Positions 1,692 to 30,115 of a stretch of DNA of 32,281 nucleotides are shown here, in pieces (positions within the stretch are counted from its first letter, which is position 1; the number at the start of each line of letters is the position of its first letter). Source of the DNA: Bacteroidia bacterium (GTDB lineage Bacteria > Bacteroidota > Bacteroidia > Palsa-965); NCBI GenBank assembly GCA_035489505.1, contig DATHKF010000684.1:1-32281 (forward strand), read 5' to 3'. The notes beneath the pieces were generated by a model. It was not told where the DNA came from and searched no databases. It was given only the letters and a program-made list of their open reading frames with translations. Position numbers and translations under genes: made by a program.

Positions 1692-1929
1692 GACAGTGTC
1701 TCAGTTTGAACATTTGCTATTTGACACGGCGACACGGCGCATTTTTACGGTATTTCTTATTCTAAGCCCGGGCGCTCACGGCGAGATAACGGTAACTTCA
1801 CTATAGAATGAAAGATTTCCGCTTGGCGGAAATACAATTGGTCTCGCCGTGAACGCGCGGGCTTAGAACGGGTTTTGTGCTTCTTTTAGCGCCGTGTCGC
1901 CGTGTCAAAAAGCAAAGTGAGACACTACC
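1692..1929. mobile_element. MITE-like nested palindromic element, family A copy 1
   Basis: The ends are GACAGTGTCTCAGTTTGAA... and ...GTGAGACACTACC. There is a perfect 20-bp inner inverted repeat, TTGACACGGCGACACGGCGC (1721-1740 / 1889-1908), and a third nested palindrome TTCTAAGCCCGGGCGCTCACGGCGAG. The 8-nt flanks are TAAAAAAC and AAAAAAAC. The interior is ~95% identical to 9699-9901. Confidence 0.6.
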
Positions 1930-9698: not shown

Positions 9699-9901
9699 GG
9701 CAGTGTCTCACTTTGCTTTTTGACACGGTCCGATAGCAATCGGGAGCGCATTTTTACGGCATTTCTTATTCTAAGCCCAGGCGCTCACGGTGAGATAACG
9801 GTAACGCGCCGTGAGCGCCCGGGCTTAGAACGGGTTTCGTGCTTCTTTTAGCGCCGTGTCACCGTGTCAAAATTATCAAATGTTCAAACTGAGACACTAC
9901 C
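9699..9901. mobile_element. MITE-like nested palindromic element, family A copy 2
   Basis: The ends are GGCAGTGTCTCAC... and ...CAAACTGAGACACTACC. The interior is the same as copy 1 at ~95% identity, but the short and long end types are swapped. The left inner arm is interrupted by the mini-hairpin CCGAT-AGCA-ATCGG (9730-9743). Confidence 0.6.
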
Positions 9902-9954: not shown

Positions 9955-12426
9955 ATGAAAATATCGCTGAATTGGCTGAAGGAATACTATCAAACCGGAT
10001 TGTCTGCGGAGGAAATTGCTGCGGCATTAACCGGGTCGGGACTTGAAGTAGAAAGCATCGAATCGTTTGAAAGTCTTCCGGGCGGATTGCGTGGCGTGGT
10101 AATTGGTGAGGTGAAGGAAAAAGAGAAACATCCGAACGCCGATAAATTATCGCTCACCAAAGTGGATGTGGGTGGCGACCAATTGCTGAGTATTGTGTGT
10201 GGCGCGCCGAATGTGGAAGCAGGACAGAAAGTTGTTGTTGCTACGGTTGGTGCCATGCTGTACCCAACCGAGGGTGAAGCGTTCGAAATAAAAAAATCAA
10301 AAATCCGGGGCGAACTTTCCGAAGGAATGATCTGCGCGGAAGATGAAATAGGTTTGGGAAAATCGCACGCCGGCATTATGGTTCTTGATGCCGATGTGAA
10401 GGTGGGAACGCCCGCTGCAGAATATTTCAATGTTTCTTCAGACACCGTTCTGGAAATTGGTCTTACACCGAACCGCGCCGATGCGGCTTCGCATTTTGGT
10501 GTAGCGCGTGACCTTGCCGCTGTTGTTTTGGCGCAGGCACTGATCAACGACATTCACGCAGAATCACCCGGGCCATCTTTCCCCGCGGTATCTGCATTGA
10601 CGGAAGAACTTCCGGCCTGTGACATCACCGTGGAAATCGAAGATGCGAATGCCTGCAAACGTTACTCCGGGTTAATCCTGAACAACGTGCAGGTTGGCCC
10701 TTCGCCGTCGTGGCTGCAGGATCGCTTGAAAGCCATTGGACTTCGCCCGATCAACAACATCGTGGACATCACCAATTACGTGATGCACGAAACAGGTCAG
10801 CCTTTGCATGCATTCGACGCAGCAAAAATTGAGGGCGGAAAAATAATCGTGAAGAAAGTGGTTGAAGGAACAAAGTTCACCACGCTCGACGGAACGGAAC
10901 GCACGCTTACTGCAAACGACCTCCTGATTTGTGATGCAACAAAACCGATGTGCATTGCCGGTGTGTTCGGCGGACTCGATTCCGGTGTAACAGAAAACAC
11001 CAAACGTGTATTTCTCGAGAGTGCGGCGTTTGACGCTGTGCACGTGCGTAAGACCGGGAAACATCACCAGTTGAAAACCGATTCATCGTTTCGCTTTGAA
11101 CGCGGATCAGACCCGGAAATAACTGTGCAGGCTTTGTTGCGTGCAACATTTCTTGTGGAGGAGACAGGGGCCGGTGAAATTGCATCACAGGTCACAGATA
11201 TTTATCCTGGCAAAACAGAACAAATCGAAATTGCTTTTTCATTCGATTACTGCGACCAGCTCGTTGGAAAAACAATTGACCGGCAGATCATCCGTAAAAT
11301 CCTGACGGCGCTGGGCATCCAGATTATTTCCGATGGAAAAGATGCGTTGCTGCTTTCGGTTCCGCATTACAAAGTAGATGTAACACGCCCGGCCGATGTG
11401 GTGGAAGAAATTCTCCGCGTGTACGGATACAACAATATCGGTTTCCCGGAGAAGCTGCAGATCTCTGCATCGCCAATGAAACATCCGGATCCGGAAAATG
11501 TCCGCGAAACGGTGGCGAATACACTTGCAGCACGCGGCTTCCGTGAGTTGCTGAATAATTCGCTGACAAAAACTTCGTACTACGAACAGCTGCAAGGCTA
11601 TGAAGCAGAATACGCAGTGAAATTGATCAACCCGTTGAGCTCCGATCTCGGTATGATGCGCATGAGTTTACTTTTCGGCGCGTTGGAATCTGTAACGTAT
11701 AACCAGAACCGAAAAAATCCGGATCAGCGTGTGTTTGAATTCGGGAAAGTGTACGGGACAAAAGCGGAAGCGGATAAGGAAGGCTGGATGTGGGACGAGC
11801 AGGAGCAATTGATTTTGCTGATGACCGGCCGCAAAAGTCCGGAGAGCTGGTCGGCCGATTCAACACCGATTTCCTTTGGCGATTTGCGCCGTGAAACAGA
11901 AACGATCCTTCAGCGCCTGCGTTTGCAGGGAGTCAAATGGCAGCCGCTTGAAAATGCATTGTACACCGAAGGACTTGCCGGATTTGTGGGCAAGCATGAA
12001 GTGGCGCGCATGGGAATGGTTGCCGGGAAAGTCCTGAAGCAGACCGATACGCAATCGGCTGTTTATGCGGCAGAGTTTGAATGGAGTACTATTCTTCGCG
12101 TGCTGAATAAAATGAAAGACACACGCTTTGAAGAAGTTTCCAAATTCCCTGCAGTACGTCGCGATCTTGCGCTGGTCATCGACAAAGTCGTGAAGTACCA
12201 GCAGCTCGAAGAAATTGCCTGGAACACCGAACGGAAATTGTTGCGCGGCATCAACCTGTTCGACGTGTACGAAGGTGACAAGCTGGGCTCCGGAAAAAAA
12301 TCATACGCGTTGAGTTTCACCTTGCAGGATAACGATGCCACGCTGACCGATAAGCAGATTGATAAGACGATGGAAAGGTTGCAGAAGGCGTTTGAAGAAC
12401 AGGTGGGCGCCAGCATCAGGAGTTAA
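9955..12426 (+). CDS. pheT: Phenylalanine--tRNA ligase beta subunit
   Basis: The canonical N-terminus MKISLNWLKEY begins at 9955, followed by a tRNA-binding OB domain, B3/4 and B5 domains and a C-terminal FDX-ACB domain (ALSFTLQDNDATLTDKQID). The ORF-track start at 9856 would read through repeat A2, so I rejected it. Confidence 0.97.
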   Translation: MKISLNWLKEYYQTGLSAEEIAAALTGSGLEVESIESFESLPGGLRGVVIGEVKEKEKHPNADKLSLTKVDVGGDQLLSIVCGAPNVEAGQKVVVATVGAMLYPTEGEAFEIKKSKIRGELSEGMICAEDEIGLGKSHAGIMVLDADVKVGTPAAEYFNVSSDTVLEIGLTPNRADAASHFGVARDLAAVVLAQALINDIHAESPGPSFPAVSALTEELPACDITVEIEDANACKRYSGLILNNVQVGPSPSWLQDRLKAIGLRPINNIVDITNYVMHETGQPLHAFDAAKIEGGKIIVKKVVEGTKFTTLDGTERTLTANDLLICDATKPMCIAGVFGGLDSGVTENTKRVFLESAAFDAVHVRKTGKHHQLKTDSSFRFERGSDPEITVQALLRATFLVEETGAGEIASQVTDIYPGKTEQIEIAFSFDYCDQLVGKTIDRQIIRKILTALGIQIISDGKDALLLSVPHYKVDVTRPADVVEEILRVYGYNNIGFPEKLQISASPMKHPDPENVRETVANTLAARGFRELLNNSLTKTSYYEQLQGYEAEYAVKLINPLSSDLGMMRMSLLFGALESVTYNQNRKNPDQRVFEFGKVYGTKAEADKEGWMWDEQEQLILLMTGRKSPESWSADSTPISFGDLRRETETILQRLRLQGVKWQPLENALYTEGLAGFVGKHEVARMGMVAGKVLKQTDTQSAVYAAEFEWSTILRVLNKMKDTRFEEVSKFPAVRRDLALVIDKVVKYQQLEEIAWNTERKLLRGINLFDVYEGDKLGSGKKSYALSFTLQDNDATLTDKQIDKTMERLQKAFEEQVGASIRS

Positions 12427-15920: not shown

Positions 15921-16030
15921 ATTGAAACCGCTTAAGCGGTTGAACCTCCAGTTGTATTCATTGCCGGGGGCTTAAGCCCCCGGCAATAGAAAAGGGCGGG
16001 TTGCCAAAACGGTTTTTAACCGTTTTTTCG
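15921..16030. repeat. Three-hairpin module, family E free copy
   Basis: AACCGCTTAAGCGGTT (15926-15941, perfect palindrome); ATTGCCGGGGG-CTTAAG-CCCCCGGCAAT (15960-15987); AAAACGGTT-ttt-AACCGTTTT (16006-16026). The same three modules, in the same order, occur inside element A3 at 22911-23005. Confidence 0.8.
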
Positions 16031-16060: not shown

Positions 16061-16094
16061 AAAAACAAAAAAAACATGCCTTACAGCATGTTTT
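16061..16094 (-). terminator. Intrinsic terminator of the cold-shock gene
   Basis: The minus strand reads AAAACATGC-tgtaag-GCATGTTTT followed by TTTTGTTTTT, 32 nt after the stop. Confidence 0.8.
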
Positions 16095-16125: not shown

Positions 16126-16317
16126 TTAAGCCAATTGAACGCGTACTGCGTTTGGTCCTTTTTTCCCCTGCTCAACTTCAAATTTTACTTTGTCGTTTTC
16201 GCGAACCTCGTCGATTAATCCTGTAACGTGTACGAAGATTTCTTCTTGTGAATCGTCGCTTACAATAAATCCAAATCCTTTGGAATTATTAAAAAATTTT
16301 ACTGTACCTGTTCTCAT
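16126..16317 (-). CDS. Cold-shock protein (CspA family)
   Basis: 63 aa. GTVKFFNNSKGFGFI (RNP1) and FVHVTGL (RNP2-like). Confidence 0.95.
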   Translation of the reverse strand: MRTGTVKFFNNSKGFGFIVSDDSQEEIFVHVTGLIDEVRENDKVKFEVEQGKKGPNAVRVQLA

Positions 16318-22863: not shown

Positions 22864-22880
22864 TCCGGAGTAGGGAGTTC

Positions 22881-23044
22881 GGTAGTGTCTCAGTTTGGCC
22901 ATTGGGGATTTTTGAAAACCGCTTAAGCGGTTGAATGTTTAGGACTGTTCATTGCCGGGGGGCAATGAACCCGGTAAACCAGCTCAACGGTTTTAACCGT
23001 TTCCATGCCACAAATCTTAACTGATTTCAAACTGAGACACTACC
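22881..23044. mobile_element. MITE-like element, family A copy 3, carrying family E cargo
   Basis: Perfect 16-bp TIRs GGTAGTGTCTCAGTTT / AAACTGAGACACTACC, with a perfect 8-bp direct repeat GGGAGTTC immediately outside both ends (22873-22880, 23045-23052). Confidence 0.7.
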
Positions 23045-23062
23045 GGGAGTTCGGAGGCTAGC

Positions 23063-25829: not shown

Positions 25830-25911
25830 GGTAATGTCTCAGTTTTATTCAGGCCGCGAATTACACGAATTACGCTAATCACTCCTTAGCGTAATTCGTG
25901 TAATTCGCGGC
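25830..25911. repeat. Solo family-A end followed by a perfect 26-bp-stem hairpin
   Basis: GGTAATGTCTCAGTTT (25830-25845) matches the A TIR at 15 of 16 positions. GCCGCGAATTACACGAATTACGCTAA (25853-25878) and TTAGCGTAATTCGTGTAATTCGCGGC (25886-25911) are perfectly complementary, with the loop TCACTCC. Confidence 0.8.
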
Positions 25912-29970: not shown

Positions 29971-30115
29971 GTTCGTTGCGGGGAAGAAAGATGTGGCGGA
30001 TAAAGGCGCGTGGAAACGTTTACAAACGACTACAAACGTTTACATCCGACTACAAGTACTTAAATACCGACTAGTTCCAGGGAAGGCAATTACCATTGCA
30101 AAAAATCAAAAAGTT

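What the first reader, a model, noticed from the sequence alone, without database searches (positions are those of the whole stretch)
15921..16030. The hairpin 'cargo' is modular: the same three-hairpin block occurs free and inside family-A TIRs
Three hairpins occur in the same order at 15921-16030 and at 22911-23005: AACCGCTTAAGCGGTT, then CATTGCCGGGGG...CCCCCGGCAATG (collapsed to CATTGCC-ggg-GGCAATG in the second copy), then AACGGTT(T)TTAACCGTT. The first block has no family-A ends. The second is bracketed by the perfect family-A TIRs. Meanwhile, the other two family-A copies carry a completely different cargo (the TGACACGG and CTAAGCCCGGGCGC palindromes). So ends and interiors assort independently, which recalls the modular BOX or BIME elements but with different sequences. 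All three module centres are TTAA-type palindromes, and two contain CTTAAG.
Basis: seen in the sequence. Interest (0 to 1): 0.6.

Follow-up and report, generated by a model that had tools for sequence, protein, structure and literature searches.

The report
Hairpin repeat living free and inside transposons
A 105-base block of three DNA hairpins is a high-copy mobile repeat that most likely belongs to a single-copy IS200-like (Y1) transposase elsewhere in the genome. The same block is also carried inside an unrelated miniature transposon and is the only seen landing site of a third element.

Summary
The three-hairpin block "E" (15922-16027) is a sharply bounded repeat of about 105 nt with 123 loci in this 4.45-Mb Bacteroidia MAG.

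- **Two states of E.** Of 88 full-length copies with usable flanks, 32 lie between family-A inverted ends and 38 have no A end. In 17 of those bare flanks a long open frame ends 10-30 nt from E. That leaves no room for an A arm (at least 32 nt).
- **Family A is a true MITE.** It has a 17-nt TIR, and 42 of 71 pairs have a perfect 8-bp duplication. It carries four cargo types. The main other cargo never occurs free (33 of 34 have both ends).
- **The three hairpins do not assort independently here.** H2 never occurs alone.
- **New lead.** A single-copy Y1/HUH transposase gene on contig C124 (subclass 1.2, published as having no partner repeats) is bracketed by four E copies. Relatives of this gene in other species carry H1-like or H2-like hairpins.

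I read E as a REP-like element moved by that enzyme, and A::E as a chimera moved by a second transposase. An IS4-family element inserts only in the H2 apex.

Earlier notes of this scan reported subclass-1.2 hairpin flanks in other genomes.

The parts
15922..16027 (+). Free copy of the E element: three hairpins, no A ends, no target duplication. It lies between the terminator of a csp-like gene (16126-16317, minus strand) and the start of the HPP gene (15874).
   Evidence: (8/17 and 8/17 matches to the A end, equal to the null)
15926..15941 (+). H1 hairpin AACCGCTTAAGCGGTT (6-bp stem, 4-nt loop)
15959..15988 (+). H2 hairpin CATTGCCGGGGGCTTAAGCCCCCGGCAAT(A), stem of about 13 bp. Its apex GGGCTTAAGCCC is the IS4 target elsewhere in the genome.
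16008..16024 (+). H3 hairpin AACGGTTTTTAACCGTT
22881..23044 (+). A::E chimera: a family-A MITE (17-nt perfect inverted ends) carrying one E copy as its interior
22873..22880 (.). Left copy of the 8-bp target-site duplication GGGAGTTC
23045..23052 (.). Right copy of the 8-bp target-site duplication GGGAGTTC
22913..23004 (+). E copy inside the A element. H1 is at 22917-22932 and H3 at 22986-23001. H2 is collapsed to CATTGCCGGGGGGCAATG (22950-22967) by loss of 12 nt of the apex.
1692..1929 (.). Family-A MITE with cargo class 1 (TGACACGG / CTAAGCCCGGGCGC palindromes)
9699..9901 (.). Family-A MITE with cargo class 1
25830..25846 (+). Solo family-A end (15/17) beside a 26-bp-stem hairpin. The same hairpin type is the interior of a complete A pair on contig C436 (cargo class 4).

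Best explanation
**What E is.** E is a REP-like (BIME-like) non-autonomous element. It consists of three sequence-conserved hairpins (H1, H2, H3) joined by two fast-diverging linkers of fixed length.

**How bare E most likely moves (inferred).**
- It is copied in trans by a single-copy Y1/HUH single-strand-DNA transposase, encoded on contig C124 (149 aa, TnpA-Y1 subclass 1.2).
- That enzyme would recognise the hairpins and insert E without a target duplication.
- Insertions often lie a few bases after stop codons.

**How E came to sit inside A (inferred).**
- One E copy came to lie between the inverted ends of a family-A MITE. Family A has a 17-nt TIR and an 8-bp duplication, which is IS1-like in style.
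- That chimera, A::E, then spread by a DDE-type cut-and-paste transposase and diversified into subfamilies.
- So the same 105-nt block exists in two states with two mobilisation routes.

**Side features (shown).**
- The long perfect H2 palindrome is repeatedly lost by deletion.
- Its apex GGGCTTAAGCCC is the insertion site at every junction found of a 1460-bp IS4-family element, which makes a 12-bp duplication.

**Shown versus inferred.**
- Shown: the copy numbers, the two states, the duplications, the gene-repeat bracket and the IS4 targeting.
- Inferred: that the C124 enzyme moves E, and the order of events that produced A::E.
For: **E is a discrete family.**
- 123 loci, 93 full length, with sharp edges.

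**Bare E is real and not a decayed A element.**
- 38 of 88 full-length copies have no A end at 12 or more of 17 matches, and 33 of them have 10 or fewer on both sides, as at random sites.
- 43 have flanks that match no other E flank.
- 17 flanks of bare copies have an open frame of at least 120 aa ending 10-30 nt from E. By their sequence some look like an RND pump, an adenylate cyclase and T9SS-tail proteins. The A arm plus TIR needs 32-45 nt. TIR-bounded copies show no such distance between 2 and 38 nt.
- Control: the class-1 cargo has both A ends in 33 of 34 full copies and is never free.
- Bare E has no target duplication beyond chance. By contrast, 42 of 71 A pairs have a perfect 8-bp duplication against 0.65 expected.

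**Link to the Y1 gene.**
- C124 is the only contig with four E copies. They bracket the 564-bp gap that holds the Y1 gene (Poisson P about 8e-8).
- The gene body is single copy, while its flanks have about 200 BLAST matches.
- The protein has the motifs DHVH, WQ and YIANQKEHH, which is the subclass 1.2 signature in Table 1 of PMC6006769.
- It aligns to solved IS200/IS605-type TnpA structures (ISHp608 and others).

**Co-variation across species.**
- The homologues in G011 and G014 (47% and 46% identity) are flanked by AACCGTTTAAACGGTT. This is H1 with one compensating C-G to T-A pair change.
- The 55% homologue in G015 lies beside CATTGCC...GGCAATG-framed hairpins like H2.
- E itself was not found in the 40 relatives searched, and no close orthologue of the gene was found either.

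**Evolution pattern.**
- Stems are about 97% conserved and linkers only about 50%.
- TIR-bounded copies are young (nearest-neighbour identity 0.92). Bare ones are each unique in their linkers (0.82).
Against: - No activity data exist. The enzyme-repeat link rests on one locus plus hairpin resemblance next to three homologues.
- The protein is not a class-2 RAYT: NF047646 scores 23.7 bits against a cut-off of 80.
- E lacks the GT[AG]G foot of canonical REPs.
- The E copies on the two sides of the gene are in the same orientation, not inverted.
- 18 copies with only one recognisable A end show that some A::E copies do decay. Part of the 'bare' class could therefore be old chimeras.
- Several bare copies keep short arm-like motifs.
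- Hairpin conservation 27-fold tighter than the linkers could also reflect a host function.
- In G011 and G014 the H1-like hairpin has only 4-5 copies, so the partnership does not always lead to spread.
- No 'empty' A element lacking E was found, so the direction of capture is unknown.
- The MAG is 83% complete and in 810 contigs.
Confidence: 0.6

Rival explanations
1. All E copies began as A::E MITEs. The 'free' copies are old insertions whose inverted ends and arms decayed or were deleted. The hairpins survived because they are selected or self-correcting. The E copies around the Y1 gene are incidental.
For: - There is a graded series: 32 copies with two ends, 18 with one and 38 with none.
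- One-end and no-end copies look older, with nearest-neighbour identity 0.84 and 0.82 against 0.92.
- Some 'free' flanks keep arm-like motifs such as GGTGCTGATGA and CATTCC.
- Flank composition is mirror-symmetric.
Against: - 17 flanks have an open frame of at least 120 aa ending 10-30 nt from E, which is too close for an arm plus TIR.
- In C567 such frames lie 13 nt away on both sides.
- The class-1 cargo of the same MITE family never lost its ends (33 of 34).
- The four E copies bracketing the Y1 gene have no A ends.
- Relatives of the gene carry H1-like hairpins without any A element.
Confidence: 0.12
2. E is kept mainly for a host function, for example as a protein-binding site, an mRNA 3' end stabiliser or a terminator. 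Its spread is secondary, and the hairpin conservation reflects selection at each locus.
For: - Stems are about 97% conserved while linkers have drifted to about 50%.
- Many copies sit 0-30 nt after stop codons.
- H2-type palindromes stand alone at gene ends with T-rich tails in three Dyadobacter genomes.
Against: - E was not found in the 40 related genomes searched, including 24 of the same genus. It is therefore not a conserved host feature.
- Sequence rather than pairing is conserved: there are few compensatory changes, and broken pairs are at least as common.
- H2 is repeatedly deleted without loss of the rest.
- No Rfam family reaches its threshold.
Confidence: 0.13
3. E is the miniature derivative (a PATE-type element) of a classical IS200/IS605 insertion sequence. 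The C124 locus is the last full copy of that insertion sequence, not a domesticated REP-type partnership.
For: - The protein passes the IS200/IS605 model NF033573 (65.6 bits against a cut-off of 55).
- It aligns best to IS200/IS605-type TnpA structures.
- E has no target duplication.
Against: - The gene lies between whole E units, not between a left part and a right part of E.
- The gene is single copy.
- Subclass 1.2 is described as low-copy and lacking IS200-type ends.
Confidence: 0.1

Closest known systems
REPtron / REP-RAYT systems (E. coli TnpAREP with REP/BIME; Pseudomonas REPINs; PMC6006769, PMC3116915, PMC8266576)
   Same: - A single-copy HUH/Y1 gene is bracketed by copies of a palindromic repeat.
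- That repeat is scattered in more than 100 intergenic copies.
- There is no target duplication.
- Several such genes occur in one genome, four of the five with repeats in their flanks.
   Different: - The enzyme belongs to subclass 1.2 (IS200-like) and not to class 2. Table 1 of PMC6006769 lists 'no' repeats for that subclass.
- There is no GT[AG]G foot.
- The unit is three different hairpins, not a REP doublet, and its linkers do not pair.
- The flanking copies are in direct orientation.
BIMEs of enterobacteria
   Same: Both are mosaics of several palindromic units joined by linkers of fixed length. They lie in intergenic positions after genes and are targets for insertion sequences.
   Different: The sequences are unrelated. 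The composition here is fixed (H1-H2-H3), with only H2 loss as a variant, so there is no combinatorial assortment.
Bacterial MITEs derived from IS1-type elements
   Same: A::E has 17-nt inverted ends, an 8-bp duplication, no ORF, dozens of copies and subfamilies.
   Different: Its interior is a repeat that also spreads on its own without the ends. No intact partner transposase is present in the MAG. There is only an IS1-like pseudogene without A ends.
Insertion sequences that target REP/BIME palindromes (IS1397, ISKpn1, ISPpu9; PMC12288879), and site-selective IS4-family elements such as IS231 (PMC2266710)
   Same: An insertion sequence is found only inside one palindromic repeat, at one position. 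Its duplication is about one helix turn, as is typical of the IS4 family.
   Different: Here the element is an IS4-family member with a 12-bp duplication of the palindrome apex GGGCTTAAGCCC. In at least one case its target lies inside a MITE, which gives three nested layers.

Membership tests
REP/RAYT (REPtron) | Single-copy Y1/HUH transposase gene | tested here: met
   PF01797 scores 85 bits. The gene body has no other BLAST match in the genome.
REP/RAYT (REPtron) | Gene flanked on both sides by its repeat | tested here: met
   There are two E copies upstream and two downstream, with gaps of 10, 564 and 29 nt.
REP/RAYT (REPtron) | Same repeat dispersed at high copy between genes | tested here: met
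   123 loci on 112 contigs. Only 6 of 88 overlap a long ORF.
REP/RAYT (REPtron) | Class-2 RAYT protein signature (NCBIfam NF047646) | tested here: not met
   The score is 23.7 bits against a cut-off of 80. The protein passes the IS200/IS605 model instead. Its motifs fit subclass 1.2.
REP/RAYT (REPtron) | GT[AG]G tetranucleotide at the hairpin foot | tested here: not met
   The consensus TGAAAACCGCT...CCATTGCC...AAACGGTT has none.
REP/RAYT (REPtron) | Enzyme binds and cleaves its repeat | not testable with these tools
   This needs biochemistry.
REPIN | Two inverted REPs whose whole length folds into one long hairpin | tested here: not met
   Left and right linkers of a copy pair no better than linkers of different copies (mean score 2.20 against 2.15 expected by re-pairing; reported 2.20 against 1.95, P = 0.23).
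MITE (family A) | Terminal inverted repeats plus a fixed-length target duplication, no ORF, many copies | tested here: met
   This applies to A::E and to the other A elements. There are 228 end matches against 12 in random sequence, 71 pairs, and 42 perfect 8-bp duplications. It is not met for bare E.
IS1 family (as source of family A) | Intact IS1-type transposase between A-type ends | tested here: not met
   There is only a PF03400 fragment within a broken ORF on C756. No A end with 5 or fewer mismatches lies nearby. The MAG is incomplete.
IS200/IS605 miniature derivative (PATE) | Left and right ends of a multi-copy full-length element fused together | tested here: not met
   The gene sits between whole E units and is single copy.
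Pneumococcal BOX-type modular repeat | Modules present in variable number and combination | tested here: not met
   H2 never occurs alone. H1 and H3 outside E occur together as H2-deleted copies.
IS4 family (element in the H2 apex) | Single DDE transposase ORF, short inverted ends, duplication of about one helix turn | tested here: met
   NF033592 scores 141 bits against a cut-off of 115. The element has a 441-aa ORF and is 1460 bp long. It has 14-nt inverted ends and a 12-bp duplication. The family traits are taken from PMC2266710.

The most novel reading that the evidence does not exclude
A subclass-1.2 Y1 transposase, published as having no partner repeats, drives a three-hairpin REP-like element. 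That element has also been captured as the payload of a DDE-type MITE and is the only seen landing pad of an IS4 element. One 105-nt sequence would then be replicated by two unrelated transposition chemistries and parasitised by a third. The extreme hairpin conservation would reflect selection for being copied, not for a host function.
Probability: 0.45. Interest if true: 0.72.

Novelty: new variant of a known kind. Interest (0 to 1): 0.6.

Why it matters
- **A possible partner for an orphan enzyme subclass.** REP-type repeats and their tyrosine transposases are understood mainly in Proteobacteria. The subclass found here, common in Bacteroidota and Cyanobacteria, is on record as having no cognate repeats. 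This genome offers a high-copy repeat, its probable enzyme and matching hairpins next to related enzymes.
- **A repeat with a second route of spread.** It is a natural case of one short repeat riding inside a cut-and-paste MITE. I found no paper describing such a chimera. It could explain 'modular' repeat mosaics in other genomes.
- **A practical point for assembly.** These layers of repeats probably explain why this MAG is in 810 pieces.

Tried and rejected
- **Strict PWM for A ends.** It proved too harsh. I replaced it with match counts against a genomic null.
- **Target-duplication search around bare E.** Nothing was found beyond chance.
- **Pairing between the two linkers.** No signal, so E is not a REPIN-type long hairpin.
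- **Structure-type covariation in the stems.** There are only a handful of compensatory changes, so there is no RNA-like signal.
- **Rfam.** Nothing reached a gathering score. Below threshold there were only hairpin look-alikes: Termite-leu 26.5 of 51 bits, Acido-Lenti-1 19.1 of 37 and naRNA4 20.5 of 59.5.
- **Long-range A-end pairs as a full-length partner.** Two weak pairs without duplications were found, and I rejected them.
- **PF01609.** No hit in the MAG.
- **Cargo classes 1 and 3 against the flanks of the five Y1 genes.** No match.
- **Metagenome contigs Ga0193752/3.** They are 100% identical to the MAG, so they give no filled-versus-empty sites.
- **H2 in Dyadobacter.** No Y1 gene there is flanked by it.

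Full report
**Setting.** The window is contig C684 of a 4.45-Mb MAG in 810 contigs (GC 47.7%, about 83% complete). Its PheT protein is at most 62% identical to those of other Bacteroidia or Bacteroidota MAGs.

**The observation.**
- Both blocks are present as described.
  - Copy 1 (15922-16027) has H1 AACCGCTTAAGCGGTT, H2 CATTGCCGGGGGCTTAAGCCCCCGGCAAT and H3 AACGGTTTTTAACCGTT.
  - Copy 2 (22913-23004) has the same order, but H2 has lost 12 nt of its apex.
- Copy 2 lies between perfect 17-nt inverted ends (GGTAGTGTCTCAGTTTG). An 8-bp duplication, GGGAGTTC, flanks those ends.
- As single-stranded DNA the block folds into three separate hairpins, z = -6.3 for copy 1 and -8.2 for the consensus.

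**Genome-wide inventory of E.**
- Iterated nhmmer gives 240 hits that collapse to 123 loci, because E is quasi-palindromic and hits both strands. Of these, 93 are full length.
- Information content falls to zero within 2-3 nt outside TGAAAACCG...CGGTTTTC, so E is a discrete unit.
- The hairpins do not occur singly. H2 is never outside E. H1 and H3 outside E loci mostly occur as pairs in copies that have lost H2.
- H2 loss happened independently in at least three A::E subfamilies. This is the expected behaviour of a long perfect palindrome (established knowledge).

**Family A.**
- The 17-mer has 228 matches with 3 or fewer mismatches, against 12 in random sequence.
- There are 71 pairs 130-290 nt apart.
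- 42 of the 71 have a perfect 8-bp flanking duplication, against 0.65 expected. Family A is therefore a genuine MITE family.
- Its interiors fall into four unrelated classes:
  - class 1: 42 pairs, the cargo of the window copies at 1692 and 9699;
  - class 2: E, 24 pairs;
  - class 3: 4 pairs;
  - class 4: a single pair, whose hairpin matches the one beside the solo A end at 25830.

Five results bear on it.
1. Of 88 full-length E copies with flanks, 32 have both ends, 18 have one and 38 have none at 12 or more of 17 matches. Of the 38, 33 are at or below 10 of 17 on both sides, like random sites.
2. 43 copies have flanks that match no other E flank.
3. In bare copies, 17 flanks have a long open frame ending 10-30 nt from E.
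   - The A arm plus TIR occupies 32-45 nt, so it would not fit.
   - By their sequence some of these frames look like an RND pump, an adenylate cyclase and T9SS-tail proteins.
   - Copies with both ends show no such distance between 2 and 38 nt.
4. As a control, the class-1 cargo has both ends in 33 of 34 full copies and is never free.
5. Bare E has no target duplication beyond chance.

Some decay does occur: there are 18 one-ended copies, and some bare flanks keep arm-like motifs. A minority of the bare class may therefore be old chimeras.

**Evolutionary pattern.**
- Stem positions are about 97% identical across all classes. The two linkers agree with the consensus at only about 50% of positions.
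- Changes in stems are rarely compensatory, and the linkers of one copy do not pair with each other.
- The constraint is therefore on the sequence of three separate hairpins.
- Copies with both A ends form young subfamilies (nearest-neighbour identity 0.92). Bare copies are each unique in their linkers (0.82).

**The probable driver.**
- A search for Y1 transposases found five genes in the MAG.
- One of them, C124:4680-5126, lies in the 564-bp gap between two E copies upstream and two downstream.
- C124 is the only contig with four E loci (Poisson P about 8e-8).
- The gene body is single copy, while its flanks have about 200 matches in the genome.
- The 149-aa protein carries DHVH, WQ and YIANQKEHH.
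  - This is the signature of TnpA-Y1 subclass 1.2 in Quentin et al. 2018.
  - That paper describes the subclass as low-copy, found in Bacteroidetes and Cyanobacteria, and lacking IS200-type ends. Its table lists 'no' associated repeats (PMC6006769).
- The protein passes the IS200/IS605 NCBIfam model but not the RAYT model. It aligns to solved IS200/IS605-type TnpA structures (ISHp608 and others).
- Four of the five Y1 genes in the MAG, including C124, have repeated sequences in their flanks. C618 shows none.

**Comparison with other genomes.**
- E was not found in the 40 related genomes searched. The closest homologue of the gene is only 55% identical.
- The homologues are nevertheless informative.
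  - Those of G011 and G014 (47% and 46% identity) are flanked by AACCGTTTAAACGGTT. This is H1 with one compensating pair change. It has 4-5 copies per genome.
  - The G015 homologue lies beside hairpins framed by CATTGCC...GGCAATG, like H2.
- This is the co-variation expected of an enzyme and its cognate hairpins. It rests on few lineages.

**Interpretation.**
- Bare E behaves like a REP/BIME-type element served by the C124 enzyme.
- A::E is a chimera in which the same block is the payload of a DDE-type MITE.
- How E entered A cannot be decided. It may have inserted into a MITE, or into an IS that was later deleted down. No E-less version of the A::E arms exists in the MAG.
I found an 8-bp duplication consistent with that, and an IS1-like pseudogene on C756, but it has no A ends.

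**A third layer.**
- An element with ends AATGTCATTAAGTT sits in the H2 apex at every junction found. There are at least 10 junctions with distinct E linkers in the MAG and 10 on metagenome contigs of the same population.
- A complete copy (L113:2193-3652, 1460 bp) encodes a 441-aa IS4-family transposase (NF033592, 141 bits).
- It duplicates the 12-bp apex GGGCTTAAGCCC and lies inside an A::E. That makes three nested elements.
- IS4-family elements make duplications of about one helix turn, and some are site-selective (PMC2266710).

**Relation to earlier notes of this scan.** Several earlier notes on other genomes report subclass-1.2 Y1 genes flanked by hairpin repeats. The enzyme-repeat idea is therefore not new to the scan. 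The dual state of one repeat and the IS4 targeting are new.

**Limits.**
- The assembly is fragmented and incomplete.
- There are no activity data.
- No strain comparison was possible.

Noticed in passing
L113:2193-3652 (metagenome contig Ga0193753_10013307), and MAG contig ends C703, C573, C171, C784, C438, C274, C294, C694, C555, C297: A 1460-bp IS4-family element (441-aa transposase, 14-nt inverted ends AATGTCATTAAGTT) lies in the apex of the E H2 hairpin at every junction seen. It makes a 12-bp duplication, GGGCTTAAGCCC. One copy sits inside an A::E MITE.
   Followed up: yes
window 30014-30053; also L092:1370-1420 (C124), C735:10650-10700, L096-L099 upstream regions: A conserved leader of TACAAACG-type repeats (for example AAACGTTTACAAACGACTACAAACGTTTACATCCGACTAC) precedes Y1 transposase genes in this genome and in several relatives. 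It also precedes the four-helix-bundle (23S rRNA IVS-type, TIGR02436) gene in the window. It may be a shared promoter or operator.
   Followed up: partly
L114-L119 (Dyadobacter sp. CY326, CY347, D. alkalitolerans): The exact 28-nt core of H2 (ATTGCCGGGGGCTTAAGCCCCCGGCAAT) occurs alone in three Dyadobacter genomes. It lies at gene ends with A/T-rich palindromic extensions, and once as a tandem array with 88-nt spacing. H1 and H3 are absent, and it is not next to the Y1 genes of those genomes. Whether this reflects shared ancestry, transfer or chance is open.
   Followed up: partly
contigs C698:7400-7610, C735:10310-10615 and 11330-11390, C354:467-782: Three of the four other Y1 transposase genes of this MAG (two of subclass 1.2, one of subclass-2.6 type) each have their own hairpin-repeat family in the flanks. 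These have 7 to 84 BLAST matches elsewhere in the genome. C618 shows none.
   Followed up: partly
C756:12050-12720 (minus strand): A broken IS1-like single-ORF transposase (zinc ribbon, HTH, DDE fragment, in-frame stops). No family-A end lies within 1 kb.
   Followed up: partly
contigs C779, C304, C413, C176 and window 22950-22967: The H2 palindrome has been lost independently, precisely or nearly so, in different A::E subfamilies. C357 and C275 instead carry a 16-nt insert in the H2 loop.
   Followed up: partly
window 16126-16317 (minus strand): A 63-aa cold-shock-type ORF with a terminator-like hairpin at 16071-16094 lies just right of the free E copy. It falls below the 80-aa ORF listing.
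   Followed up: no
class-3 A elements, e.g. C306:5848-6041: The class-3 cargo has a central small hairpin, CATTGCC-AAA/TTT-GGCAATG. It shares the outer 7-bp stem of H2.
   Followed up: no
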